This document shows, piece after piece, positions 4,313 to 37,070 of a stretch of DNA of 64,000 nucleotides. The notes under the pieces are model-generated. The model was given only the letters and a program-made list of their open reading frames with translations. It made no database searches and was not told the DNA's origin. A program made the translations under genes and the position numbers. How positions within the stretch are numbered: position 1 is the first letter of the stretch; every line of letters starts with the position of its first letter. This DNA comes from a virus, in IMG/VR virus record IMGVR_UViG_3300027896_000023, positions 1-64,000 of that record; one strand, given 5' to 3'.

Positions 4313-5539
4313 TTACTCCTTTAGGTCTCTGATCTTGCATTGTACGTTGAAACGGGTGCAGATCTCGTCGGCCATAGTTCTGTATAGACCCTTGTCGCCT
4401 AACGCGTTCACTGCGAATGGGTTGCCTGTGCTGATACCTGCTTCGAAGTATTGTGTTGGCTTTGCAATCTTCATGAGTAGGTAGTCTGTGTCTTCAAGAT
4501 AGAATCTGCTTAAGCCTACTGGAGTTCCACTTGGTTGGTCTGCGAGTGCGTCCTTGGTTGGAATCATTGGGACACCGTTGTAGGTTGCAACTATGAAGCC
4601 TGCTGCCATGCCTTCTACGCCTTTGACTCCGCCGTATGTTGGTACAACTGTCTTGTATTCAACAAAGCGTTGCTGGGCCTGTAGAAGTCTCTGGACTGCT
4701 TTCAATCCGTCGAAACCTGTTTGGATTACTTTTGGTGTTCCGCCTGCTTGCCAAACGTCTTTGAATGCGCCATCCATGATGTCTAAGGTTAAGCTTCTGA
4801 GTGTTGGGTTGCTTCCACTGTACTCGATGATTGCGTCTGCCCAAGAATAGTTTGAAGCATCTGATCGGTTGACTGTTGATCCGTTAACGTAAACGTCGTT
4901 GCTTGCTGCATGAGGTGACAGTGATCCATCTGCGCCTTTGAGTGTGCCATCAGATTCAACTTTTGCGCTAAAGATGCGGTCTAAGCTTTGTACGTCGTAA
5001 CCTTCCTGGGTTGCGCCAACAGCTACTCCTTCAGCGTTCAACATACGGTTGATGTGTTCTGCATGATGAAGACCCATGATCTCTCTCATTTGTCTCATGT
5101 AGTCTCCAAGAGAATCATCAATCGTGCCGAGGAATTGGGCTGCTTCTGACGCGTTGAAGCTGTGACCAACAGTTTTTGGTTTGCTGTAGAGTTGCATCCA
5201 TGTGGGCTTTAGAGTATCTGGAATTCCACTGTTGTCTACTAGTCCGCCTGGTACAACTGTGTATCCGCCTGAGATACCATACGTGGTGAATGCTGGTTTC
5301 TTTGTCAGTACACGGAAACCACTGTGATCCCATACTGCTTTAGGCTGCATTGCAAAAGTGTTGGCTTCAAGGTTCAATTGACTCCAAATCTTAGCGCCGT
5401 AAATCGGGTTGTAAATTCCGGTTGTCGTGGTTAAAATTGGTGCATCTGCTTTCATTATGTTGTCGGCTAAGCCGAGTCCGTAGTAGTAACGTTCCATGTC
5501 TTCCATGGTTCTAATTTGGAAAATACTTTGTCCTGACAT
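4313..5539 (-). CDS. Major capsid protein (HK97 fold, magrovirus/halovirus-like)
   Basis: RTMEDMERYYYG, KADAPIL, IYGAKIWSQLN, VATYNGVPMIP and GLYRTM motifs; position after the protease. Confidence 0.9.
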   Translation of the reverse strand: MSGQSIFQIRTMEDMERYYYGLGLADNIMKADAPILTTTTGIYNPIYGAKIWSQLNLEANTFAMQPKAVWDHSGFRVLTKKPAFTTYGISGGYTVVPGGLVDNSGIPDTLKPTWMQLYSKPKTVGHSFNASEAAQFLGTIDDSLGDYMRQMREIMGLHHAEHINRMLNAEGVAVGATQEGYDVQSLDRIFSAKVESDGTLKGADGSLSPHAASNDVYVNGSTVNRSDASNYSWADAIIEYSGSNPTLRSLTLDIMDGAFKDVWQAGGTPKVIQTGFDGLKAVQRLLQAQQRFVEYKTVVPTYGGVKGVEGMAAGFIVATYNGVPMIPTKDALADQPSGTPVGLSRFYLEDTDYLLMKIAKPTQYFEAGISTGNPFAVNALGDKGLYRTMADEICTRFNVQCKIRDLKE

Positions 5540-11674: not shown

Positions 11675-13426
11675 CTATGCCCTCCGGCTTAAGTCCTCTT
11701 TTTCCGTAGAATCCAGTGGGTTGATCCATTTGTTTGTGTGCATTAAGCCGTATACCCTGGATACATCTGACTTGTATGCTTCTCCCTGGTCTCCAGCTGG
11801 CTTCGGCGCATACGCACCTGTTCTTTCCCGCAGCATTCCTGTAGCTTCAGACTCAATCGGCATGCCTTCTGCTTTACTGGGCGGCCCAAAACCCTTCGGG
11901 CTGGTTGCTTGAGGGGCACGTCCCATGCCAGAAACCTCAATATCCCCATGATCGTTGAGGCGCACGTCGAATCCTGCTTTAAGCCAGGTGAAAGCTGTAT
12001 TTGCTTTGACCTGTCCAATCTGTGCCAGGCGTACATCGTCTCGTAGCTCGAGTGTATTGAAGTGTAGATGCCAGTCTGTGATTGTGAAAGCTGGGAAAAC
12101 TCTGTGGTTCATGAGGTCTTCGCGGTTTTTATGGTGTTCCCGGATGGCGCGGTCTTGCACAGTGACCTGCATCATTGGTGTAGTGCCTGATTTTCCGTCG
12201 ACTGATCCTGTGAATATGGGCATAACGCTGTAGACACTGGCAATTGCCGCCTGCCAGATCTTGTAGTAGTCAATTGACTGCATCCGTTTGAAGTCTTCCA
12301 TGACTTTTGTAACTTGAATCTTCTCTTTGCTGCCAATCATCATGGTGCGAACTTTCTTTGTGGTGCGGAAACGCCGTAGAACAGGGTCATAAACGCGTTT
12401 CTTCATTGCCTCGTTCTCGAATTGATCCATGATTTCGTTTACTTCTTCCTGTTCATGCCCAGGGAAGTTCACTATGCTGCCCAATTTGCCTTCAGTATAG
12501 AGATCCAAGTTGAAGTCATCCATTGCCTGGATGGTTATGAGGATCTTCCAGAGGCTGATGATCTTGCTTTCAGCGTAGATGTTGGGTAAAATGCGGTCTT
12601 CACCTGCATGAATGATCTCGTCTTTGGTGAAGCGTGCTTTGATGGCGCCACCGATGCGTTGAACGTAAGCTGTTTTCTCCAAGGCTTTACCGCAGATCGG
12701 GCAATCTACCTGTGGCGCCGTGTACACCAGATCAGGCCGCCAGCAATCTGGACAAAAAAGCTGCTTTGGATCACCCAGGTGCCCTTTGTCATCTGCAACA
12801 GCACGCATGTACCGGGGATCTTCAACGTTCAGTTCCGATGGAATCTTGATGAAATCGTTAGGAAACTCCGGGTCTGAAACATACTTATAACTTATACTTA
12901 GAAAGTAGTTGCTAAGCGCCAGGTCATAGGCTAAAGTTGAATACATCAATTGATAGAATGTGATGTCTTCTGCAGGACGCGTAATCAACTGCAGGGCGCG
13001 ATCGTATTGTTCGGGGCTGGGACGCCGCAGCGGTCCACCGCAGACTACAGGTGTAGCTAATGGATTAGAAGGATCCTGGATCTCCTGGGTGCATTTGCCT
13101 TCACTTTTAACTGGCCAATCTCTGTATTCTTTGCCGCAGGACATACATTTGCCAGCGAACGCAGGTTCAATAGTCCAACCTGGACTCAGCGTCTCCCGGA
13201 TGATTGCGTTAAAAGTACGTTTCAAAACCCAGTTTGTACGTGCAACAAGCATCAATTCCTCAAAATTGTAGAGGGGTTCACGTATCATGTACTGGGGCAT
13301 CCACGAGAATTCGGGGATGACCGTGCGATCATGCTTCTGTATTGACTGCATAAAAGGATCTATTCTTTCGAATGCAGTTTCCGATTTTCTTATGACCTGA
13401 GTTTCTTGTCCTATATCCCACGGCAT
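11675..13426 (-). CDS. Portal protein with Zn-ribbon insertions
   Basis: Between TerL and protease; FTKDEIIH and IASVYSVMPIF portal-like motifs; extra CxxC pairs. Confidence 0.85.
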   Translation of the reverse strand: MPWDIGQETQVIRKSETAFERIDPFMQSIQKHDRTVIPEFSWMPQYMIREPLYNFEELMLVARTNWVLKRTFNAIIRETLSPGWTIEPAFAGKCMSCGKEYRDWPVKSEGKCTQEIQDPSNPLATPVVCGGPLRRPSPEQYDRALQLITRPAEDITFYQLMYSTLAYDLALSNYFLSISYKYVSDPEFPNDFIKIPSELNVEDPRYMRAVADDKGHLGDPKQLFCPDCWRPDLVYTAPQVDCPICGKALEKTAYVQRIGGAIKARFTKDEIIHAGEDRILPNIYAESKIISLWKILITIQAMDDFNLDLYTEGKLGSIVNFPGHEQEEVNEIMDQFENEAMKKRVYDPVLRRFRTTKKVRTMMIGSKEKIQVTKVMEDFKRMQSIDYYKIWQAAIASVYSVMPIFTGSVDGKSGTTPMMQVTVQDRAIREHHKNREDLMNHRVFPAFTITDWHLHFNTLELRDDVRLAQIGQVKANTAFTWLKAGFDVRLNDHGDIEVSGMGRAPQATSPKGFGPPSKAEGMPIESEATGMLRERTGAYAPKPAGDQGEAYKSDVSRVYGLMHTNKWINPLDSTEKEDLSRRA

Positions 13427-16124: not shown

Positions 16125-16237
16125 TATTTATAAACCTACTTAGTGGGAGACATCATAAAACTTTTGCGGTGTAACAAACAGTCAAACGTACGTTTCAGCA
16201 TAAAACTCAAAAGCAAAAGTACACATAACTGAGTTGA

Positions 16238-16303
16238 GGCTGGTCTAGTTGGGCATTTAAGCCATGAAATACCCCTCCGAGTTGTTAACGCCCTAGACCA
16301 GCC
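16238..16303. repeat. Long inverted repeat/hairpin upstream of TerS
   Basis: GGCTGGTCTAG (16238) pairs with CTAGACCAGCC (to 16303); inner GGGC/GCCC and TTAA arms. Confidence 0.75.
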
Positions 16304-16341
16304 GTAAAAAAACTTATAAACACAGACAAACCATTACTGAA

Positions 16342-16676
16342 TTGGCTTAACCATCCACTCCTGGAGAGAGGAGAAGGTCGAGACACTTACACAAGCCGAC
16401 AAGCAATTGTTGGTACAGGGAAGTTGGACACCGATGAGTGTCCCTCAACAACGACTTGTGTCATGATTGCACCTTTGGGGGGCTGGATCGATTGAGACCA
16501 CGTGTTCAAGCGCACTTCCGCCAGTATGCCGCAAGGCAAACAGGTCTGGCCAACGCTAACTTCGGCGTAAATGAGTTGCAGACACGCGGCGCAGCAGCGA
16601 TCAGTTCAACTACGGCCGCCAGAACTATCGACTCTGGCAACTCGTCAGCTGAGTCATAAGCTGCAAACAGCCCCCC
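16342..16676 (+). ncRNA. Candidate structured ncRNA (~340 nt), family unknown
   Basis: TATA-like CTTATAAA at ~16313; many nested helices, a GCAA tetraloop, GGGGGGCTG/CAGCCCCCC closing stem. Confidence 0.55.
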
Positions 16677-16732
16677 TAACTATCAATACGTTCTGAAGCA
16701 ACACGTAAAAGCAGAGTTCCATTGTGATTTGT

Positions 16733-16873
16733 ATGGATCAAAGATTAGTAAAATGCACCCGATGTTTGAGGCTATATATTTTTCCGGAGACAACCGCAGG
16801 TGTATGCCCCAGTTGTGGACACCCAGGGTTTATAGTATCATATCCTAAATCTACAGCTGTAGATAAGCCATAA
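16733..16873 (+). CDS. CPxCG Zn-finger microprotein (46 aa)
   Basis: MDQRLVKCTRC...VCPSCGHPG. Confidence 0.55.
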   Translation: MDQRLVKCTRCLRLYIFPETTAGVCPSCGHPGFIVSYPKSTAVDKP

Positions 16874-17023
16874 AGCATTTAAACGTAAAAGTACATATTT
16901 TACGTTATGAACTGCCATGAACAAACCACGCAAGAGAATCAAGAAAGAACAGTTCACTCCGCCAATCCGGGAATTGGAAGAGTCAAGTTTTGAAGAAGTA
17001 GCCCTGATGATCGGCTTCGACCA

Positions 17024-20324: not shown

Positions 20325-20769
20325 AAAAAATTTTTAGGTTACAGGTGCTTGTAGATCCATTTGCCAAACAAGTACCCAAGAACAGCAATCCACAACGCGA
20401 TACCTGTCCACCCGGCTAAATCATTATAGTAGTTTGCCCCAACCATAAACAGCAAAGTGCCTACAAGCAACAGCAGAATCAACACAGCATTCAATTTATC
20501 CATACGGTATGGTACCTACAAACAAAATATATATTTTGCGTCGACCAAAAAAATTGCAGCAGGGGCGAAGCATACCATCCGTTGCGATAGGACAGTTACT
20601 CCGATAGCCTGCTGCATCCACATTCCGCCATATCCAGTGGGGGACCAGACGGACTTCAAAAGTTATTTACCTAAAAGAAAGCTATATACTTATTTCAAAG
20701 TTATTTACACCAAAAAAAAGTATATACGTCAAAAAAATTTTATAAAGGCATCGATCACGCCCATCGATT

Positions 20770-21060
20770 TTACGTTCAACAACAAAATCTCAAGCAGTGT
20801 ACAACACCAACAACAAACAAAACAGGCAGACAACAACAAACAACAACAAAGGCGCCCCAACCAGAACCCGCAAGGTTCTCCAAAGAGAACCAAAACCCCC
20901 AAACACACACACCCCAAACAAAGTGCCATGTATCTTATGTGATTTTGGCTTTATTTGACTGTTTGATTTTTGTTTATTGGGTGAACTGTTGGATTTTTGC
21001 GCGCGCTAGATTTTTGTTTATTGGTTGTTTTTTTATGGTTTTTGTGGTTATTATAATGTT
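20770..21060. other. CA-rich to GT-rich skew switch; candidate replication origin or genome-end region
   Basis: CAACAA/CACAC tract to ~20920, then TTTGTT/TTGG tract; non-coding, at the boundary of the main gene blocks. Confidence 0.45.
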
Positions 21061-21097
21061 ATATTATTTTAAAGGCTAATTTAGGCTTATTTTAACG

Positions 21098-21134
21098 TGT
21101 TACGCATAACACTTATTAAGGTGTATGCGTAACA
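21098..21134 (+). promoter_or_regulatory. Palindromic operator enclosing a TATA-like box
   Basis: TGTTACGCAT-AACAC-TTATTAAG-GTGT-ATGCGTAACA. Confidence 0.65.
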
Positions 21135-21139
21135 TGGAT

Positions 21140-21912
21140 TAACGAAAAAGGTGTGTGATCCAAAAAAGACAACTAAAAAAGCGTTGGGCGCGCGCGCGCG
21201 CCCAAACCAGCCTTAAAGGCTTGGTGAACGGAACAGCACCGTTTAATCAACTGCCAAACATCCCAATACCATTACGGGAACGGATGGATGCTAAACTGAA
21301 TGGCAAGGTCTACATGGTTAAACGGTGAAATAAAAATCTGTGGTGCTTCATCAAAAGATTTAGGACGGTTGACGATTGCCTATCGTACCTTAACATATAG
21401 CTCCTGCTAGGTGTGTTGCCTCCAGATTAAGCTGGACGGTGCTAGTTAACCTGATGTACAAATAAGGGTTAATTTGAGAGACTGAGACAACAAAAAATCC
21501 GCTAATTATGAGTCCCAACTTTTACGGTTGCCTGCGGTATGTTAAGGAAAAACTGCGCAGAAATGGCAAAAGACTGATGCCAAAGGAACTTCAATGTTTC
21601 AATAAACCGCCCTAAATCGAGTAGGCAATCGGGACGGGCTAGCACCGTAACCCAACAACATAACTGCAAGTGAAACACGTACATAAATTTGAAAGGTAAA
21701 TTGCAATAAACCGAGTATGGACACCCGCAAGATAGTCACGAAAGGGAGATTTACCGATTAAAGTTAAAACAGTTATGGCTTGGTAACGGTGCACCCGCAC
21801 TACTGAAATTCTACAACACTTGCGTTATGGCTTAACAAGTCATGGCGCAGACACACACACGCAGGCTAATACTCGCCTGCCGACCGCAAGGTCGTACCCC
21901 TAGATCTTTTTT
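21140..21912 (+). ncRNA. Candidate large ornate ncRNA (~770 nt)
   Basis: No plus-strand ORF; long-range helices, a G-U-containing stem, a GNRA loop; upstream TATA and downstream T6. Confidence 0.65.
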
Positions 21913-21972
21913 CTACGCAGTTATGCGCTCGAGTCGTTGCAAATTACGACGAGAGAACTAGGAGGATTAGTT

Positions 21973-22362
21973 ATGTCAACCAGTATTGAACGACTTTTAG
22001 ATAGAAACGCCGATAAAATCTACTATCACCCTCGCACAGGCGAGAAGATGTCAACCTGCACCTGTGGAGACAAGGTACATTCAATGCCACCAATCTCCAA
22101 CCTGCACACGAACGGATGCCCACGCACTACGTACCACCGAATGGTCAACGCCCAGTGGATAGGCGACACGCCGATTCCGACAGGGCAACTCAAGACATTC
22201 TGGGGAGAACGTAAGCATGGATACGTCAGCAAGCACCAACACGCACAGCATGGCGCAGGCAGATTCCTACCTCCGCAGATGCCAGAACGCAAAGTGAGGA
22301 TACTCTGCAGACACATAGACCGCGCAATCAAAGAGACCAAGACCACTGTACAAGTTGCCTAA
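21973..22362 (+). CDS. Hypothetical His/Cys-rich protein, first gene of the plus-strand block
   Basis: GGAGG RBS at 21961, ATG at 21973. Confidence 0.65.
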   Translation: MSTSIERLLDRNADKIYYHPRTGEKMSTCTCGDKVHSMPPISNLHTNGCPRTTYHRMVNAQWIGDTPIPTGQLKTFWGERKHGYVSKHQHAQHGAGRFLPPQMPERKVRILCRHIDRAIKETKTTVQVA

Positions 22363-22526
22363 TCCTCCCAGTAATAACGTAAAAGGAGTGTGAAAGAAAA
22401 ATGGAACATCAACCATCCATCCAACAGCGAGTACAAACCGTCTACGACTCTCTACAGGGAAGTAGCAAAACCGTGACCTCAGACATCAGAACAGCACTAT
22501 ACATAGTGCGAACGGTGGGAGTCTAA

Positions 22527-22745
22527 ATGGGACACATGCACTCACCATGCGAAAACTGCTTGGGAGTCGGGTGTGAATCATGCCCGAAATACATCCAAGC
22601 CAAGCAACTAGCAGAGTTCGAAGCCAAGCAGTGTGAGGATCAGCTCAAATGGGAACAAGCCCAAGATGTACTCGTCGATCCAATCCAGCGGTCTGATTCA
22701 CCTAAAGGTTGGAAACAATATACAGAAAGGCTACGTCATCAGTAG
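22527..22745 (+). CDS. Small Cys-rich protein
   Basis: CENC...CESC. Confidence 0.5.
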   Translation: MGHMHSPCENCLGVGCESCPKYIQAKQLAEFEAKQCEDQLKWEQAQDVLVDPIQRSDSPKGWKQYTERLRHQ

Positions 22746-22891
22746 CCTCTTTTTCTCAGTGACCAATATGACTCAATTACTAAATCTCGGAGAAGATGGG
22801 CGGTCTAACAAGACTCGTGCTATCACTGAGTCGGTGCAGAAATGCACCGTTTTTCTCAGTCACAGAATGACAAACCTATGGAGGTGTATTT

Positions 22892-23209
22892 ATGGATGAA
22901 AATGAAGATGAACGGCGACTTATCGCTTTTCTCAACAACACAGGATTAGGAGTAAAGATTGAATCCACTGACGTCATTAACTCAGCACTCTACGCTTGGT
23001 CCACATTGCCAGTCTCGCATAACCCAACAATGACTCGATGTTTCATACAGGACTTCGCAGCATCACTTGATCGGAAACACTTCTTTCAAAGCTACGAACA
23101 ACTTCAGGAGTTCTGGGATCTCGCTGGCAAAAGAGTCCAGGGCATGCATGAACTCAGCAAAGTTGGCGCAGCACTCACTGTTAGTCGCAGGGAGGTGAAA
23201 GAAATATGA
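22892..23209 (+). CDS. Hypothetical protein
   Basis: GGAGGTG RBS. Confidence 0.6.
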   Translation: MDENEDERRLIAFLNNTGLGVKIESTDVINSALYAWSTLPVSHNPTMTRCFIQDFAASLDRKHFFQSYEQLQEFWDLAGKRVQGMHELSKVGAALTVSRREVKEI

Positions 23210-30519: not shown

Positions 30520-31509
30520 ACAGAGTAAGCCTTACCACAAGATAAGAGTAACGTTACCGCCAATAGTAACAGTTACTACACCTATAGAAAGAACCAAACC
30601 CCCAACCAACCACCCACCCAAACATCAACGGCACTTTTTTGTATGTTGTTTTTGGTTGTGCGGATTGTTTGTTTGTTGTTTGTTGTTGGAGTGGGTTGTT
30701 GATGGGCACGGCTGGTATATGTTGGGGTTCTCTGGGCATATTGTTCTTGTTGTTACAGGTGTAGATGTCATAGCATCATTTGGCACTGCTGAATTTGCTG
30801 GTGTCTATCATTCAAGAAAAAATGTTGAAGCATCAATGCGTACTCCGTTTCAAGCGGCATCACCATGACAACATACATACTTTACGTTTGACAACACGTT
30901 TAAAAGACGGTTGCTCTTGTACAGTACAGGTGTAAGTGAGTGATATGCGGATGGATAGATGGGGTTGCAAGGGGAAGGAAGGAAAAGTTACAGGTGAAAT
31001 TGTATGGGTAAGTACGGTAGAAAACCTGAACAGGTAAAGCAAGACACGCATCCACGTCTCTGCCGAAAATGTGGAAAGCGAACCTACAGTTGGAGTTGTT
31101 GCGGTCAACAGACTGCACGAGTTAATGACAAAGCGTTTACCAAGAACAGGCTTAGCCAAAATCTCGGTGACAAAGCAGATTACAGGTGAAGAGGTGAAAA
31201 TGAAATGAGTGAACCAAAGATTTACTGGCGAGACATCGGGGAACATGGTGCAATAACACAGCGCGACGGATGCTACTACTGGGAGGCATGGCGAAGAAGC
31301 TACACCTGCACAACAATACCTGATGGGTGAAGCTAAAGTAAAGAATCGGTAACCACGTGTGCCATTTGGCAAACATGGATGCAAGCCATACTCCCGCCGA
31401 GTGTGGAAGAGTAACTCTCTTGTTCCGAAGGTTCGTCGGAAGACATTCACCGAACTGCAAAGCGGTCTGGTGACAAAGAGTTTACATGAAAAATACAGGT
31501 GAAGAATGA

Positions 31510-32373
31510 ATGCGAATAGCATTAGCAGGATTTGAAGCCGACGTTTCCACTGAGTTAGTGAAGTCGGCTAAGCTGATTGATGAACCATTGATTGTTGAAC
31601 TCATCAACGGCTACCAAGAAGTGTGTAAGTCATGCGTTTCTTGCGCTGGCTGCACGAAATATCCGTTCTGTTCCTCCATCGAGGTTAAGGAACGGAGTGT
31701 ACCCTTGTATCCTACAGGTGAAACTTTTGTGGATGACGAGGGCGAAACCAAACCCGTCATGCGACAGGGCGAACCCTACAAGCAAAGCATGAAAACCAAA
31801 GGCGTAGAAGATTGCAACGGCGTGTTTCGACAGGTGAAGAAAGGCGAGTACAAAGGATACGAAGTAGTAGCAGACCCATCTGACCCCACCAAGATACTGC
31901 TTGAAGAACGAGTCATGTTCGAGGAAGGCACAAAGATTCTTGACATCACTGAAGAAGACCTGTTCCCTGCAGGTGTAGAAACAAACTTCTTAATTGAGAA
32001 GCTCTACGAAATCTATCCGCACCATGACAAAAGCATCGAGAAGGATAACCGCAACAAACAGAAACTCTACGAGATACATCAGCTACTCTCCGAGAAAAAG
32101 AAAGTAGCAATCAAGAATGGATTCGTGTGGCGTGGAGGCACGTATCAAGCGTGGGCTGCAATCATTGAAGCTATGACTTTTGAAGATGGCAAATGGTTAC
32201 TCACGTTGAAGACCACCCAAGCACAGCTTAGTTGGATTCATCCACAGGAAGTACCCGTTGTGTTGACTGAACTACAGGTGAAGAAAGCGCCAACCGTGAA
32301 CAACCTGACGGCGATTACAAGTTTCCTCAGCAAAGTAAAGGCTGAACAGAAGCCGCAACTGCAGGTGAAGTAA
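31510..32373 (+). CDS. Divergent Ku-like DNA end-binding protein
   Basis: Order of YQEVC..C, KGYE, ILDI, IEKLYEIYP, LY..L...KKVAI...VWRG, LLTL parallels prokaryotic Ku. Confidence 0.5.
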   Translation: MRIALAGFEADVSTELVKSAKLIDEPLIVELINGYQEVCKSCVSCAGCTKYPFCSSIEVKERSVPLYPTGETFVDDEGETKPVMRQGEPYKQSMKTKGVEDCNGVFRQVKKGEYKGYEVVADPSDPTKILLEERVMFEEGTKILDITEEDLFPAGVETNFLIEKLYEIYPHHDKSIEKDNRNKQKLYEIHQLLSEKKKVAIKNGFVWRGGTYQAWAAIIEAMTFEDGKWLLTLKTTQAQLSWIHPQEVPVVLTELQVKKAPTVNNLTAITSFLSKVKAEQKPQLQVK

Positions 32374-32597: not shown

Positions 32598-35500
32598 ATG
32601 ATGTATGAATCAGATGACTTCAAAGTTACACGCAACAAAGCTACACCTGAAAACCCCTTCAGCTTTACAACCAAAAGCAAATGCAAGAAGGGTTGGGTTT
32701 CAGCTAACTTCTTTTGGAAACCAAGCAACGTGACCATGCGAATCATCGGCGACAAGATACCATGCATGGAGATAGCGTATCCATTCGTGAACCACAACGG
32801 CGGCGGAGTGCTGGCGGACATGGCACCGCAGGAACTCCTACGTACGCTGGTTAATCGACTGAACATACAGGTGAAGAATCAATGAGTGAACAAGACGAAT
32901 GTGAAGATTGCAACGGCACAGGCTACGAGAAACATGGTAGCGCAGATGAGAAGAAATGTACCACGTGTAAAGGCACAGGCAAAGTACCCCACACCTACAC
33001 TGAAGAAGAGATAAACAAAATCATAAACTTCCATGGCGCCAACGGAAAACTCATCGACATCTTCTCCTTGCATGGCGTACTCTTTGTTGGCAATACTACA
33101 CCTATAGTTACCTTAGAGAATGGACAAATCAAACACTGCAATGGATGGGACTTGAGTCACGAGGGACAGTACACACGGTTCAGCACAGGCAACCTTGCAG
33201 TTTCCATAGATGACTTTTGGGATTGCCATACACCTGAAGAAGTACATGATACGTTCGGCGAACTGCTGGAAGAACGAGTCAAGGAGAATCTAGTATGAGT
33301 TGCCCTAATTGTGGAACTAAAGTAGTAGACGTCTTCGTCACCAGCAACTACACGTTAACCAAAGATGGTGATGATTGGGTGCGAACAGACATCGAGAACC
33401 CAGTTGACGATTCAACCTACAGGTGTACCAAATGCCGTAAGGTGTTACCACCTGAACTGCTGGAAGAATTAGGAGTGACCTAAGATGAAAGAGTACACCG
33501 TGTACCTGAAAGAAATCATGGATGAAACCAGCGTGGATGCAGATGACGAGGCACAAGCGAAACGTACAGCTGCAGATTTGTTTCTGGATTTTCACCCTGA
33601 CCTGACCAGAGAATTTGTTGAGGCGCACATGGAGATAATCGAGACACGAGAACTGACAGCAGAGGAGGAGAAGGAAATTGGGTGACCATAGAACAAACGG
33701 TGAGAAACTTTACGATGAGTTCGACGGCTTGATTGACAGCGCCGAAGCGTATGGATTCCATGTGATTGCAGAAAAGCTACGCAAGATTCGAGACCACACA
33801 CCGAAGTATCCTACAGCTGTAGATGAAGGCATCAGTATGTTGAGGAAAGGAAAGAAGCCTCCTGCATGGATAGAGAAGCTGGATGATGATGCATTGAAGG
33901 AGACACTTCAAGATTGTAAAGAAGCATTGAAGTCACAGAAGTGTGGGTGGGATACGCATACTGTTGAGGAACTGCAGCAGCTTGAGGCAGAAACTACAAG
34001 GCGCAAAGGCTTACGGTTCTTAGACCCAGCAGCCTACGACCAAGAACAGCTAAAGAAATACTTCGTGCAACCTACAGCTGCAGAGAATCCGAAGTGCCCC
34101 AACTGCAAGAACATCATGGTGATAGATACCACAGGTAAGTCACACTGCGAATACTGTGAGAAGGAGGCGAAGCAAGATGGCAGAACCTAAACAAAAATTT
34201 GTCATAAGAGTTCACTTCACCAACAACGATACCTACGCAGACTGGAGTACAATCTACATCAAAGGCAAGATACCTGACAAAGCATGGCTGAAGAGTTTGT
34301 ACGATGGAGTGAATGAACCCAAAGACATGACGGTGCTGGGAACTATTCTTCCGCGACACCCGAAGATTCCAGTTGTTAGTCTTGACAACATTGCAGGAAC
34401 ATACGACGACCCGTATGATGCAGCGAATTGTATACAAGACCTGTCTTCAGCTGAAGATAGAAAGCTAGGACAGTACACGAATGGACAAGGAGTCATTGTA
34501 GTTTACTACAAAGATTGAGGAATGAAAGTTGAGTAAGAAAAAGCAAGGACAAGTCATCGCCAATGGCGTACCTGTGTATGGCTTCGACGAATACAACGAG
34601 GCGGGTGCACGTATGGTAGCTGGCGGCGAGTTGAAAAAGATACTCCGTTTGAAGCGGAGTCTTGGAGAAATCCGAGTACAGTATCCATCGGGGCGAGAAG
34701 TCCTGATAAAAATATCAGAGGTAAACGAGTAATGAAAGTGTTTAGTTTTGACAAGGAAACATTGTTGGAAGAATTGAAGACTAACCCGAAGTGGAGTAAG
34801 TACCTCAGCATCTACAACAAAGAAGATGGAGACGGAGACCTGTCACAAAAGTTCAATGAAGACTGTACGGGCTGCTGCAACCCAAGCACATTGATGTTTG
34901 TGTTGGCTGACACAGAAGAGGAAGCAAAAGAAATGACCTTCAAAAACGAAGCTGGAATGTGCGGCGACTGCATGGCAACTGAACTGGCTAACACTGAAGG
35001 CGGGACCTACGAACTTCATTACCATAAAGATACAACTGCACCTGCAGGAAAAATCTACAAAGTCCCAGCGTGCGAATCCTGTGGGGAACCTTTAGAGAAA
35101 GTTCAGTTCAACGACTACACCACGTACACATTCAACGCGAAGATAGGACAGTATGAGAACACAGGCGGCGATGCTGAAAGCAAATGCAACGAGTGTGAAG
35201 CAAAACTGGGAGATGAAGTGGGCGACTTCGTTGGCGACTACCAAGCTACCAAGCTAATTAAAGAAAAGAAACCTACAGGTGAAACCAAATGAACAACAGC
35301 ATTGTCACATCAATCATGGCAGAGATAACTCCTGATGACATCGACCCAACAACTGAAGCTATAATCTTCCTTATCGATAATCGCTACAAAGAACTAGGCA
35401 TCGAAACAAAATACGGCAAAACCATCACACTTGACACAACACCTAAACCTGAACGGCATGGCTACAGCAGTTACTTTGAACCTCTTAACAAACAAGTTGC

Positions 35501-36793
35501 AACCTTAGACATCCGTAAGAAAGGAGCTATCAATGGCAAAGCTGAACTGCAATTCACAGCCCGCCCTGAAACCATTGGAGACGAAGACAATGAAGAGGAA
35601 GTATTCATTGTCACTGTGGAAGAACGAGGGATGCTAGATGCAACTGGAAACTACAAGCAGTTCAAGACGCCACGTGGAACCTACACAATCAAGGGTACAG
35701 AGAAAGCTGAGTTCAAAATTATCAACGAGGTGCTACCATGACCGAACTACAGGTGAAGAAACAGAACCTCCGCCAACAGTTTGAACATTTCCTACTGACC
35801 GACTATCCTTCTGATGCAGGAGAAACATTGAAGGAAGCCCAGAAGTACGCTAAAGAAATGTACTTCAGTGACCCAGACGGCAGCATACCTGACCAATACA
35901 TAGGCGAAGATATACTGAATGACATCAACAGCAAATTCTACCGTGTGCTTTCATTCATCCGCAGCCTATTCGAAGCGAAGCATCCAGAAGCTAAAGACGT
36001 CTTTATCAACGTAGACCCAAGCTACGAAGACCACACCTGCTATGTGGTACATCAATACAGCAGCCACAAAGTTCTACTCAGTGGCAACGACAAAGCATGG
36101 AACTTCTGGTGGCGTAACGTGTATGAATTCAAACGGTTCGTAACGTCTACGCTTGAGGCGATGGAAGAAATCTACAAGCCCCAAACATTGCACGTAGTCA
36201 TCAACAACTACGGCGGAGTTCTGAATGACATTGACCCATTCGTTGATGAAGCAGATGCATTGAAACAGTTTGAAGTGTACGCTGAAATTCCCTATGCTAC
36301 ATACGCCAAACGCAAAGCAGCTTACGACAAAGGCAAACGCGGCAACCTCTGGGATGATGAAGACACAGATGTACAGGTGTGGGAAATCAAAGTGATACCC
36401 AAAGGAGGCAAGCCTGAGTAATGCCGTACCTTGTGAAAGCTAAGATAACAGGAGAGAGACAAAAGGTGAAGCGTCTTCTGGAAGAAGTAGACTTGCTTGC
36501 CCAACAACTACACGTGAAGGTTGAGTACGATGCCGTTGAATGATAACCTGCAAGAGTGGTACAACGAACACATGAAGACACTCGTTGACCAAGCATCTAA
36601 AGAACAGCCCCTTCCCAAAGGAAGCAACATGTTAGAGATGGTGAACCGCCTGATAGCACGAAACAAAATCCATGCCAAGACACTGATACTCAAAGACCTA
36701 CAGGTGCAGTTCAACCTGACACCTTACCCTGAAGAAGTGAAACTTGTCTGTCCCATTTGTGACAGAGAAATATCGGAGGAACATCCAGTATGA
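32598..36793 (+). other. Run of about 12 small, mostly acidic or Cys-rich hypothetical ORFs
   Basis: Coupled ORFs starting at 32598, 32882, 33295, 33485, 33678, ~34177, 34529, 34732, 35289, 35738, 36521. Confidence 0.65.
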
Positions 36794-37070
36794 AAGTTGA
36801 GATGAAAGAACAGAAACATTTGTGGATAGTCTTTGGAGACCAAGCTACCCGCAACCAAGCAGAGGTCATCATAGACCTTGAACACAACGATGTACGCATT
36901 TGCGATTATCGTAGCCAAGTAGTCAAGGTGCGGCTGAAACCAGACCTACAGGTGAAGGACATCTTAGTCAACGACGTATTCCAAGCAGTCGAACAGCCAT
37001 CAACGCTTTTATTGCATTGCGTGGTGGCGGATTGTCGCCGCCGAGTAACAAGAAGTATTCGCAGCCATAA
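36790..37070 (+). pseudogene. Possibly frameshifted hypothetical gene
   Basis: After FQAVE a shifted frame reads TAINAFIALRGGGLSPPSNKKYSQP-stop; the annotated frame instead runs through the foreign 56-bp copy. Confidence 0.35.

What the first reader, a model, noticed from the sequence alone, without database searches (positions are those of the whole stretch)
21140..21912. ~770-nt ornate non-coding RNA candidate heading the early region
Seen: CACCGTTTAATCA 21238/TGGTTAAACGGTG 21315; CGATTGCCTA 21373/TAGGCAATCG 21622; CCTTAACATA 21388/TATGTTAAGG 21538; ACGGTGCTAG 21436/CTAGCACCGT 21639 (crosses the former pairs, with an alternative partner at 21780-21792); CATAACTG 21659/CAGTTATG 21770; GGTAAAT/ATTTACC; a 13-bp stem 21821-21849 complete only with G-U pairs; ATACTCG 21869 in a loop complementary to CGAGTAT 21712; CGACC-GCAA-GGTCG; then T6. 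Size and complexity recall the phage-associated ROOL and GOLLD RNAs, but I cannot assign a family. A large structured RNA in an archaeal virus would be notable.
Basis: partly seen in the sequence, partly recalled or inferred. Interest (0 to 1): 0.85.

Follow-up and report, generated by a model that had tools for sequence, protein, structure and literature searches.

The report
Orphan folded RNA candidate, archaeal virus
The gene-free 0.8 kb in front of the early genes of this archaeal tailed virus folds far better than chance and is probably a large structured RNA of no known family, but no relative with a similar sequence was found, so its structure and function remain unproven.

Summary
Window 21140-21912 lies in the longest ORF-free stretch of the 64 kb (994 nt). 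The + strand MFE is z -5.98 against 60 shuffles, the - strand -2.81. Twenty-one background windows range from -3.82 to +2.20. Inverted 8-mer pairs number 16 against 4.0 expected, p 0.002.

It matches no Rfam family, so ROOL or GOLLD membership fails.

The only close relative recovered, L005 (neighbouring protein 55% identical), also has an ORF-free, over-folded stretch of at least 0.7 kb in the same place. That stretch has no sequence similarity to this one. Similarity resumes at the T-run, in a 50-nt three-way-junction element that is 90% identical.

A more distant relative, L004, has no such spacer. So no covariation test was possible, and no RNA run was listed.

The capsid and portal proteins match only archaeal tailed viruses.

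Four long helices cross one another and cannot all form in a simple fold.

My best reading is a real rightward structured leader or ncRNA, confidence 0.5. This scan has noted similar early-region RNAs in other archaeal viruses; those notes are unchecked leads.

The parts
21045..21095 (+). AT-rich stretch with TATA-like runs just right of the GT-rich block. Candidate promoter of the RNA (inferred only).
   Evidence: Sequence. No promoter could be established. The sigma-70 scan shows nothing on the + strand here, and an 8-nt TATA-type motif is not enriched in the window (40 matches against 45.5 expected). L004 and L005 have a TATA-like run in the matching place.
21098..21134 (+). 37-nt near-perfect hairpin. 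Possibly the 5' end of the transcript.
   Evidence: -18.8 kcal/mol, z -6.10, 0 of 200 shuffles as good. Listed as I2.
21140..21912 (+).
   Evidence: z -5.98 on +, -2.81 on -. 224 predicted pairs, 21 of them G-U. No T5+ run on + until 21907, but six A5+ runs. A 258 against T 172, like the sense strand of the + genes.
21184..21205 (.). 22-nt GC palindrome. It is a 9-bp hairpin in the RNA. On the - strand it is followed by T6, which is terminator-like for leftward transcription.
   Evidence: I7; pair probability 0.93.
21222..21353 (+). Domain 1, closed by 21222-28 / 21347-53. It holds the 13-bp helix 21237-49 / 21315-27.
   Evidence: Pair probability 0.99 for the 13-bp helix. The domain is closed in the MFE.
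21357..21648 (+). Central domain with four long complementary pairs in the order A B C D ... C' A' B' D'. A encloses C. B and D cross A and each other.
   Evidence: Forcing A+C gives -233.1 kcal/mol, B -230.7, B+C -227.5 and D -226.9, against an MFE of -234.4. Helix energies: B -14.4, C -10.6, D -16.5 kcal/mol.
21621..21814 (+). Domain 3. It holds 21642-48 / 21786-92 (the alternative partner of D'), 21659-66 / 21770-77 and 21695-702 / 21748-55.
   Evidence: Pair probabilities 0.97-1.00. The domain is closed in the MFE.
21820..21894 (+). Three consecutive 3' hairpins: 14 bp with 4 G-U, 6 bp, and 5 bp with a GCAA loop.
   Evidence: 21815-21900 gives z -5.56, 0 of 200 shuffles as good. Pair probabilities 0.93-1.00.
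21907..21957 (+). T6 plus a conserved 50-nt element: a stem, a 4-bp hairpin with a GNNA loop, and a hairpin with a GA/GA internal loop. This is the only part conserved in L005.
   Evidence: 90% identity over 51 nt, while the gene behind it is 68% identical. Consensus three-way junction of 17 pairs; 4 pairs are kept through one-sided changes to G-U and there are 0 double changes. The 22 nt at 21931-21952 equal stem II of type III hammerheads in L006-L009, but the element itself gets no Rfam hit.
21973..22362 (+). First early gene (129 aa, unknown function, Cys/His-rich) behind a GGAGG site.
   Evidence: No Pfam family. Nothing usable in the Atlas.

Best explanation
A rightward transcript of about 0.8 kb (roughly 21098-21912) that codes for no protein and folds into several stable domains. 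It heads the early gene block of an archaeal tailed virus.

Inferred, not shown: it is made from an AT-rich promoter just right of the CA-to-GT composition switch. Part of it stops at the T6 run, which in archaea can end transcription without a hairpin; that is established knowledge, not tested here. The rest reads through the conserved 50-nt three-way-junction element into the first early gene. It would then act as a long structured leader, or as a stable early non-coding RNA.

Its sequence is free to change as long as it stays densely paired. This would explain why the relative L005 keeps an ORF-free, over-folded stretch of like size in the same place with no sequence in common.

The mutually crossing 10-14-bp helices are best read as alternative pairings, or as tertiary or intermolecular pairs, rather than as one nested fold.
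For: - Longest ORF-free gap of the window. Its ORFs have no Pfam match, and the only PHROG match is weak (E 0.0028). There is no peptide-level conservation with L005.
- Folding: z -5.98 on +, against -2.81 on -. Background windows range from -3.82 to +2.20.
- Inverted k-mer excess, p 0.002-0.01, while direct repeats are only p 0.07. The stretch is second of 90 windows.
- Strand: imperfections in strong helices are mostly G-U on +, for example 4 in the 14-bp hairpin. There are no T5+ runs on + inside the stretch, six on -, and then T6 at the end. AT skew matches the + sense genes.
- L005 has the same layout: a GT-rich block, an ORF-free stretch, a hairpin, T5, the conserved element and the gene. 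There, inverted 8-mers are 16 against 5.6 expected (p below 0.002) and direct repeats are not enriched. Its z is -3.96 on + and -2.11 on -.
- In the conserved element, 4 pairs differ between the two genomes and stay paired only through G-U on the + strand.
Against: - No homologue of the 0.8 kb was found, so there is no covariation evidence: phages blastn, L005, whole records of L003 and L004, three exact probes in IMG/VR, a structure model of domain 1 (L005 best E 8), and vir519 plus the first half of HVTV-1.
- The more distant relatives L003 and L004 have no such spacer.
- No promoter could be shown.
- The central 300 nt has no local folding signal. Its perfect long helices cross, and the nested ensemble mostly does not use them.
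- GC content is not raised (0.444 against 0.449).
- A terminator-like hairpin plus T6 on the - strand at 21175-21205 hints at leftward transcription into the 5' part.
- The L005 coding control also gives z -2.66, so moderate z-scores are common here.
Confidence: 0.5

Rival explanations
1. DNA-level element. The stretch belongs to the replication origin, genome end or packaging region next to the CA-to-GT switch. The complementary segments and the repeated ACGGTG-type motif would be protein-binding sites or single-strand DNA hairpins, not RNA.
For: - It adjoins a composition switch with palindromes that recurs in L004 and partly in L005.
- ACGGTG or its complement occurs 5 times in 21237-21792, in both orientations. 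By my arithmetic about 0.4 are expected.
- Direct 8-mers are mildly enriched, 11 against 5.5, p 0.07.
- The 22-nt GC palindrome.
- G-T wobble also stabilises single-stranded DNA, so the strand bias does not exclude a single-strand DNA form.
Against: - Most complementary pairs are unique sequences seen exactly once in each orientation. In L005 direct repeats are not enriched at all, 6 against 7.1.
- Pairs span 140-240 nt and are nested or crossing, which is unlike iterons.
- L004 has the switch without the 0.8 kb, so the switch region does not need it.
Confidence: 0.15
2. Mobile non-coding cargo. On this reading the stretch is a non-autonomous element carrying its own ncRNA, of the PATE or MITE type, that landed in a hotspot in front of the first early gene. 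L005 would carry a different insert.
For: - The left part is not alignable to L005 and homology resumes abruptly at the T-run.
- L004 lacks any insert.
- Precedent read in passages of PMC10544981: a 489-bp PATE between ORF2 and ORF3 of the archaeal tailed virus HRTV-DL1. Its ORF3 region is the most transcribed of the virus, and the element is 99% identical to a host copy.
Against: - It is single-copy in the 84-kb record.
- In the source metagenome's contigs only one record covers 21071-22900 at 80% likeness or more.
- No TnpB-type gene is in the record.
- No exact probe match in IMG/VR.
- No terminal inverted repeats or target duplication were seen.
- Synonymous sites are saturated at 68% nt identity, so loss of alignment is expected without any insertion.
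Confidence: 0.1
3. Non-functional spacer, or decayed genes whose folding excess is incidental.
For: There is no conservation, no expression data and no known family. Some coding windows also reach z -2.5 to -3.8.
Against: - z -5.98 lies outside all 21 background windows.
- Three exact 10-nt complements lie within 292 nt (by my arithmetic about 0.04 expected).
- A second genome keeps an ORF-free stretch of like size with the same inverted-repeat excess.
- The rest of the genome is tightly packed.
Confidence: 0.15

Closest known systems
GOLLD and ROOL RNAs (large 'ornate' RNAs of bacteria and phages). I saw the abstract start of preprint 10.1101/2024.12.08.627333 in the listing. The rest is recalled.
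   Same: Several hundred nucleotides long, multi-domain, virus-borne, function unknown, with long-range and crossing pairings.
   Different: No match to any Rfam model. No conserved sequence in relatives. No tRNA nearby (0 in 64 kb). An archaeal rather than a bacterial virus. It sits as a leader directly in front of an early gene. Multimer formation was not tested.
PATE in archaeal tailed virus HRTV-DL1 (PMC10544981, passages read)
   Same: A non-coding element of some hundred bases near the start of an archaeal tailed virus genome. The published case is the most transcribed region of that virus.
   Different: That element is 99% identical to a host copy and is transcribed antisense. Here no second copy was found, the fold favours the + strand, and the host is unknown.
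Type III hammerhead ribozyme (Rfam RF00008), as found in L006-L009. HF1-group haloviruses are also said to carry a hammerhead (PMC7230728, one passage).
   Same: This comparison applies to the conserved 3' element only. It is a three-way junction open at one stem. 22 nt, covering the stem II hairpin and its loop plus the flanking GA and GA, are identical to those hammerheads.
   Different: The strand between the two hairpins is 5-6 nt (CUCGA, and CCUUGA in L005) instead of the 7-nt core shown. The 3' core is also altered. There is no Rfam hit even in a 131-nt search at E 10. It may be a relic, a look-alike or chance.
Non-coding left end with early promoters and processing hairpins in front of the first early gene of T7-type phages (recalled). 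PMC8707807 passages compare HF2's inward early transcription with T7.
   Same: About 0.8-0.9 kb without genes heading the early block, beside a presumed genome end.
   Different: No promoters or processing sites were shown here. A long-range complementary architecture is not a described feature of that region.

Membership tests
GOLLD, ROOL, OLE and other large RNAs in Rfam, group I/II introns, RNase P | Match to the family covariance model at or near the gathering score | tested here: not met
   0 matches at gathering in 64 kb. In 20400-22400 at E up to 10 there are only 6 weak matches to unrelated small families. The best is RUF4, 25.2 bits against 55, at 21010-21214.
GOLLD / ROOL | Frequent neighbourhood of tRNA genes in phage or prophage (recalled feature) | tested here: not met
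   ARAGORN finds 0 tRNA genes in the window.
GOLLD / ROOL | Homo-oligomeric RNA-only assembly | not testable with these tools
   Only a hint: long helices that cross with 2-3 nt linkers, and a 22-nt self-complementary tract.
Any structured RNA family | Compensatory base changes among homologues | not testable with these tools
Type III hammerhead (conserved element 21907-21957) | Conserved catalytic core between stems I and II and after stem II | tested here: not met
   The core strand is 5 nt in the window and 6 nt in L005, against 7 in the model consensus. No hit at E up to 10.
Type III hammerhead (conserved element) | Three helices around a junction, open at stem III | tested here: inconclusive
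   RNAalifold gives a three-way junction from 2 sequences, with 17 pairs and no double change. Single-sequence z is -1.95 and -1.12.
Bacterial intrinsic terminator | GC-rich hairpin immediately followed by a T-run | tested here: not met
   12 nt lie between the stem end (21894) and T6 (21907). No + strand site is listed.
Archaeal oligo-T termination signal | Run of 5 or more T on the non-template strand | tested here: met
   T6 at 21907-21912 is the only T5+ run in 21098-21975. L005 has T5 at the same place. Function was not tested.
PATE / IS200-IS605-derived non-autonomous element | Several copies, including in the host; related TnpB or TnpA element | tested here: not met
   One copy in the record. 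One covering contig in the source run. No PF07282 or PF01385 match in the record. Host genomes could not be searched.
Replication origin with iterons or ORB boxes | One motif repeated several times, in direct as well as inverted orientation | tested here: inconclusive
   ACGGTG-type motif 5 times. Direct 8-mers 11 against 5.5, p 0.07, in the window but 6 against 7.1 in L005.

The most novel reading that the evidence does not exclude
This may be one case of a class of large early RNAs of archaeal tailed viruses that is defined by position rather than by sequence. In such a class the sequence would turn over completely between relatives, while a dense fold of some 0.7-0.8 kb and a short conserved 3' junction element are kept. 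The perfect 10-14-bp helices cross each other with only 2-3 nt linkers. They would then be pairs between copies, giving an RNA-only multimer in the manner of ROOL and GOLLD. Alternatively they would be the arms of a conformational switch that times entry into the early genes.
Probability: 0.12. Interest if true: 0.85.

Novelty: new variant of a known kind. Interest (0 to 1): 0.5.

Why it matters
Large structured RNAs of unknown function are known from bacteria and their phages. My three full-text searches turned up no report of one in an archaeal tailed virus, apart from the PATE of HRTV-DL1.

If this stretch is transcribed and folded as predicted, it would show that archaeal viruses invest about 1% of a tightly packed genome in an early RNA. 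That RNA's sequence evolves freely while its pairing density is kept.

That would be an unusual selective regime. It points to a function that depends on bulk structure, for example a decoy, a stabiliser, a timing device or a scaffold, rather than on specific motifs.

The short conserved junction element, with a hammerhead-identical hairpin, gives a concrete handle for tests of RNA processing or regulation at the start of the early operon.

Tried and rejected
- Rfam membership: rejected.
- Coding: rejected. The ORFs have no Pfam match and only one weak PHROG match, and there is no peptide similarity to L005.
- tRNA or tmRNA: none.
- Search for relatives by single proteins in IMG/VR: none.
- Search by protein alignment A1: L003 and L004 in IMG/VR, L005 in metagenomes, none in GTDB genomes.
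- The pattern from the conserved element gave 0 hits in IMG/VR. It gave 12 hits in GTDB genomes, none of which continues into the element, so they are chance.
- Three probes from the RNA body found nothing in IMG/VR.
- A covariance model of domain 1, built from the window and its own genome copy and so effectively one sequence, found nothing in L005 (best E 8). It gave one weak hit, L004 9707-9837, 19 bits, rough E 0.0067. This is AT-rich and I treat it as noise.
- Pairing between the conserved hairpin and the RNA body: not better than shuffled probes.
- No RNA holder was listed among sequencing runs. Only the probable source DNA run X1 holds the stretch.
- Laying X1's contigs showed one identical contig and no variants, so there is no microdiversity to use.
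- The neighbouring protein gave nothing in the Atlas.
- HVTV-1 (first 50 kb only, of 102 kb) has no comparable gap apart from nt 1-540.
- vir519 has gaps of 508 and 668 nt with z -2.3 and -2.8 and no similarity.
- forced crossing helices together, so its two constrained energies are invalid. One search replaces them.
- Supplementary files of papers were not opened.

Full report
What is there.

The window is the first 64 kb of an 84,165-base IMG/VR virus record. Leftward structural genes end near 17.9 kb. Rightward genes run from 21973 to about 50.5 kb.

Between the two blocks lie, in order:
- a CA-rich then GT-rich composition switch (20770-21060);
- an AT-rich stretch;
- a 37-nt hairpin (21098-21134);

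No ORF of 70 aa or more in any frame covers 20943-21936. That 994-nt gap is the longest in the window. The short ORFs inside have no Pfam match and only one weak PHROG match, E 0.0028.

Is the folding more than chance?

| Test | Result |
|---|---|
| + strand MFE | -234.4 kcal/mol |
| + strand z, 20 shuffles | -5.30 |
| + strand z, 60 shuffles | -5.98 |
| - strand z | -3.13 and -2.81 |
| 21 other 773-nt windows, sense strand | z -3.82 to +2.20 |
| Inverted 8-mer pairs, 21206-21912 | 16 against 3.99 expected, p 0.002 |
| Inverted 10-mer pairs | 4 against 0.23 expected, p 0.01 |
| Direct 8-mer pairs | 11 against 5.5 expected, p 0.07 |

Among 90 non-overlapping windows the stretch ranks second for inverted pairs. 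Its low-complexity neighbour ranks first.

The signal is uneven. Local 200-nt z-scores are strong at both ends and about zero in 21400-21699. The centre therefore depends on pairs that span 140-240 nt.

Anatomy.

The MFE gives these parts:
- a closing helix between 21144-57 and 21854-60 plus 21906-12;
- two 5' hairpins, one of them the 22-nt GC palindrome;
- domain 1 (21222-21353), with a 13-bp helix at pair probability 0.99;
- a multibranch domain 2 (21357-21618);
- domain 3 (21621-21814);
- three 3' hairpins.

The four longest complements lie in the order A B C D ... C' A' B' D'. A encloses C. B and D cross A and cross each other, and the A-B and A'-B' linkers are only 2-3 nt.

Nested folds that use A+C, B, B+C or D lie only 1.3 to 7.5 kcal/mol above the MFE. 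The RNA would therefore have several near-equal alternative pairings, or pseudoknots, or pairs between copies. The nested ensemble gives B, C and D pair probabilities of 0.01, 0.13 and 0.

Strand.

Four observations favour the + strand:
- the larger z-score;
- G-U pairs in strong helices, for example 4 in the 14-bp hairpin;
- an A-over-T skew like that of the + sense genes;
- no T5+ run on + until T6 at 21907, while the - strand has six.

Two observations point the other way. Helix A has one A-C mismatch on +. The GC palindrome is followed on the - strand by T6, which looks like a terminator for leftward transcription.

T6 lies 12 nt after the last hairpin, so it is not a classical intrinsic terminator. 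It would serve as an archaeal oligo-T signal, which is established knowledge and was not tested here.

Known families.

Rfam 15 gives nothing at gathering in 64 kb. It gives nothing meaningful at E up to 10 in 2 kb or in the last 131 nt. ARAGORN finds no tRNA. Membership in ROOL, GOLLD, OLE, introns or RNase P is therefore not supported.

Relatives.

The downstream 129-aa protein has two relatives among 5.8 billion proteins, at 56% and 50% identity.

Scans with the protein alignment recovered three loci:
- L005, a 1678-nt metagenome contig, 55% aa identity;
- L003 and L004, IMG/VR, 34% aa identity.

In L005 the 880 nt upstream of the gene are also ORF-free and begin with a GT-rich block. They end in a hairpin, a T5 run and a 50-nt block that is 90% identical to window 21907-21957. 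The gene itself is only 68% identical.

Upstream of the T-run there is no similarity by blastn, nhmmer, MAFFT or six-frame tblastn, or with a covariance model of domain 1.

L005's stretch nevertheless shows the same statistical signature:
- inverted 8-mers 16 against 5.6 expected, p below 0.002;
- direct repeats 6 against 7.1 expected;
- z -3.96 on + against -2.11 on -, although its coding control also reaches -2.66.

L004 goes from the CA-to-GT switch through a TATA-like run and a small ORF straight into the gene. It has no spacer, and the RNA is nowhere else in those records.

No other copy was found in the phage collection, in IMG/VR by three exact probes, or in the source run's contigs.

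The conserved element.

Window 21907-21957 folds in both genomes as a three-way junction. It has a stem that includes the T-run, a 4-bp hairpin whose loop differs but stays GNNA, and a hairpin with a GA/GA internal loop. Four pairs are kept only through G-U, and there are no double changes.

Its 18-mer occurs in four IMG/VR contigs. There it is stem II of type III hammerheads: 49.8 bits in L007 and L009, and 45.9 bits in L006 and L008, against a gathering score of 48.5. The identity runs for 22 nt.

The window copy lacks the hammerhead core and gets no Rfam hit. I report this as an unexplained resemblance, not as a ribozyme.

Host.

The major capsid protein matches 9 of 9 records from haloarchaeal tailed viruses or a Methanofastidiosa virus. 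The portal's only match is that Methanofastidiosa virus. The terminase matches Streptomyces and Bacillus phages at about 24% identity.

Sigma-70-like sites are below expectation (17 against 27.1) and intrinsic terminators are at expectation (20 against 20.1). An archaeal host is well supported, but which archaeon is not shown.

Interpretation.

The best reading is a real + strand structured RNA, either a long leader of the early operon or a stable early ncRNA. Its pairing density, not its sequence, would be under selection. I give this 0.5.

Rivals:
- a DNA-level origin or terminus element, 0.15;
- mobile non-coding cargo of the PATE type, 0.1, with the published precedent in HRTV-DL1 (PMC10544981, passages);
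- a non-functional spacer, 0.15.

No expression data exist. No RNA holder was listed, and that blank says nothing either way.

Literature.

- The search listings show no report of a large structured RNA in an archaeal tailed virus.
- PMC7230728 (passages) mentions a hammerhead in HF1-group viruses.
- PMC8707807 (passages) describes early inward transcription in HF2 and the antisense Tant RNA of phiH1.
- Supplementary files were not seen.

Earlier scan notes describe similar gene-free, folded stretches at the head of the early genes in several other archaeal viruses. I could not test these notes and do not count them as evidence. A sequence look-up found no look-alike of this stretch outside its own genome.

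Noticed in passing
window 21907-21957; L005 877-927; L006-L009: A 50-nt element is 90% conserved between window and L005 while the gene behind it is 68% identical. 22 nt of it are identical to stem II (with loop) of canonical type III hammerheads in four bacterial-phage-like IMG/VR contigs. The window copy lacks the catalytic core and gets no Rfam hit.
   Followed up: partly
window 20770-21060; L004 9180-9700; L005 1-60: A CA-rich then GT-rich composition switch between the divergent gene blocks recurs in the distant relative L004 and in part in L005. It may be a genome end or an origin.
   Followed up: partly
window 21175-21205, - strand: The 22-nt GC palindrome is followed on the - strand by T6. 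Two more T5+ runs on the - strand follow, at 21145-21149 and 21162-21167. This looks like a stop for leftward (antisense) transcription.
   Followed up: no
window 34101-34873 and 31001-31773: Among the background windows these two coding-region windows fold unusually well on the + strand (z -3.82 and -2.48 with 14 shuffles).
   Followed up: no
window 16125-17023: The second longest ORF-poor stretch of the window, 899 nt without an ORF of 80 aa or more, lies beside the terminase region.
   Followed up: no
window 4313-5539 and 11675-13426: The capsid protein matches only archaeal tailed viruses (HVTV-1, HCTV-1, HCTV-5 and HCTV-16 at about 30% identity; vir519 at 26%). The portal matches only vir519, whose host is given as Methanofastidiosa.
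   Followed up: yes
L008 1834-2386 and 9406-9462, 11291-11349: This unrelated IMG/VR contig carries two tRNAs, a permuted tmRNA (54.9 bits) and two type III hammerhead matches (45.9 bits each, below the gathering score of 48.5).
   Followed up: no
window 21237-21792: ACGGTG or its complement occurs five times (21237, 21322, 21436, 21643, 21786). This gives one strand (21642-48) two alternative partners. It could be a switch or a repeated binding site.
   Followed up: partly
L029 (vir519) 35076-35583 and 36178-36845: There are two unannotated gaps of 508 and 668 nt in the nearest annotated relative, with modest folding excess (z -2.3 and -2.8 on +). They show no similarity to the window stretch.
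   Followed up: partly
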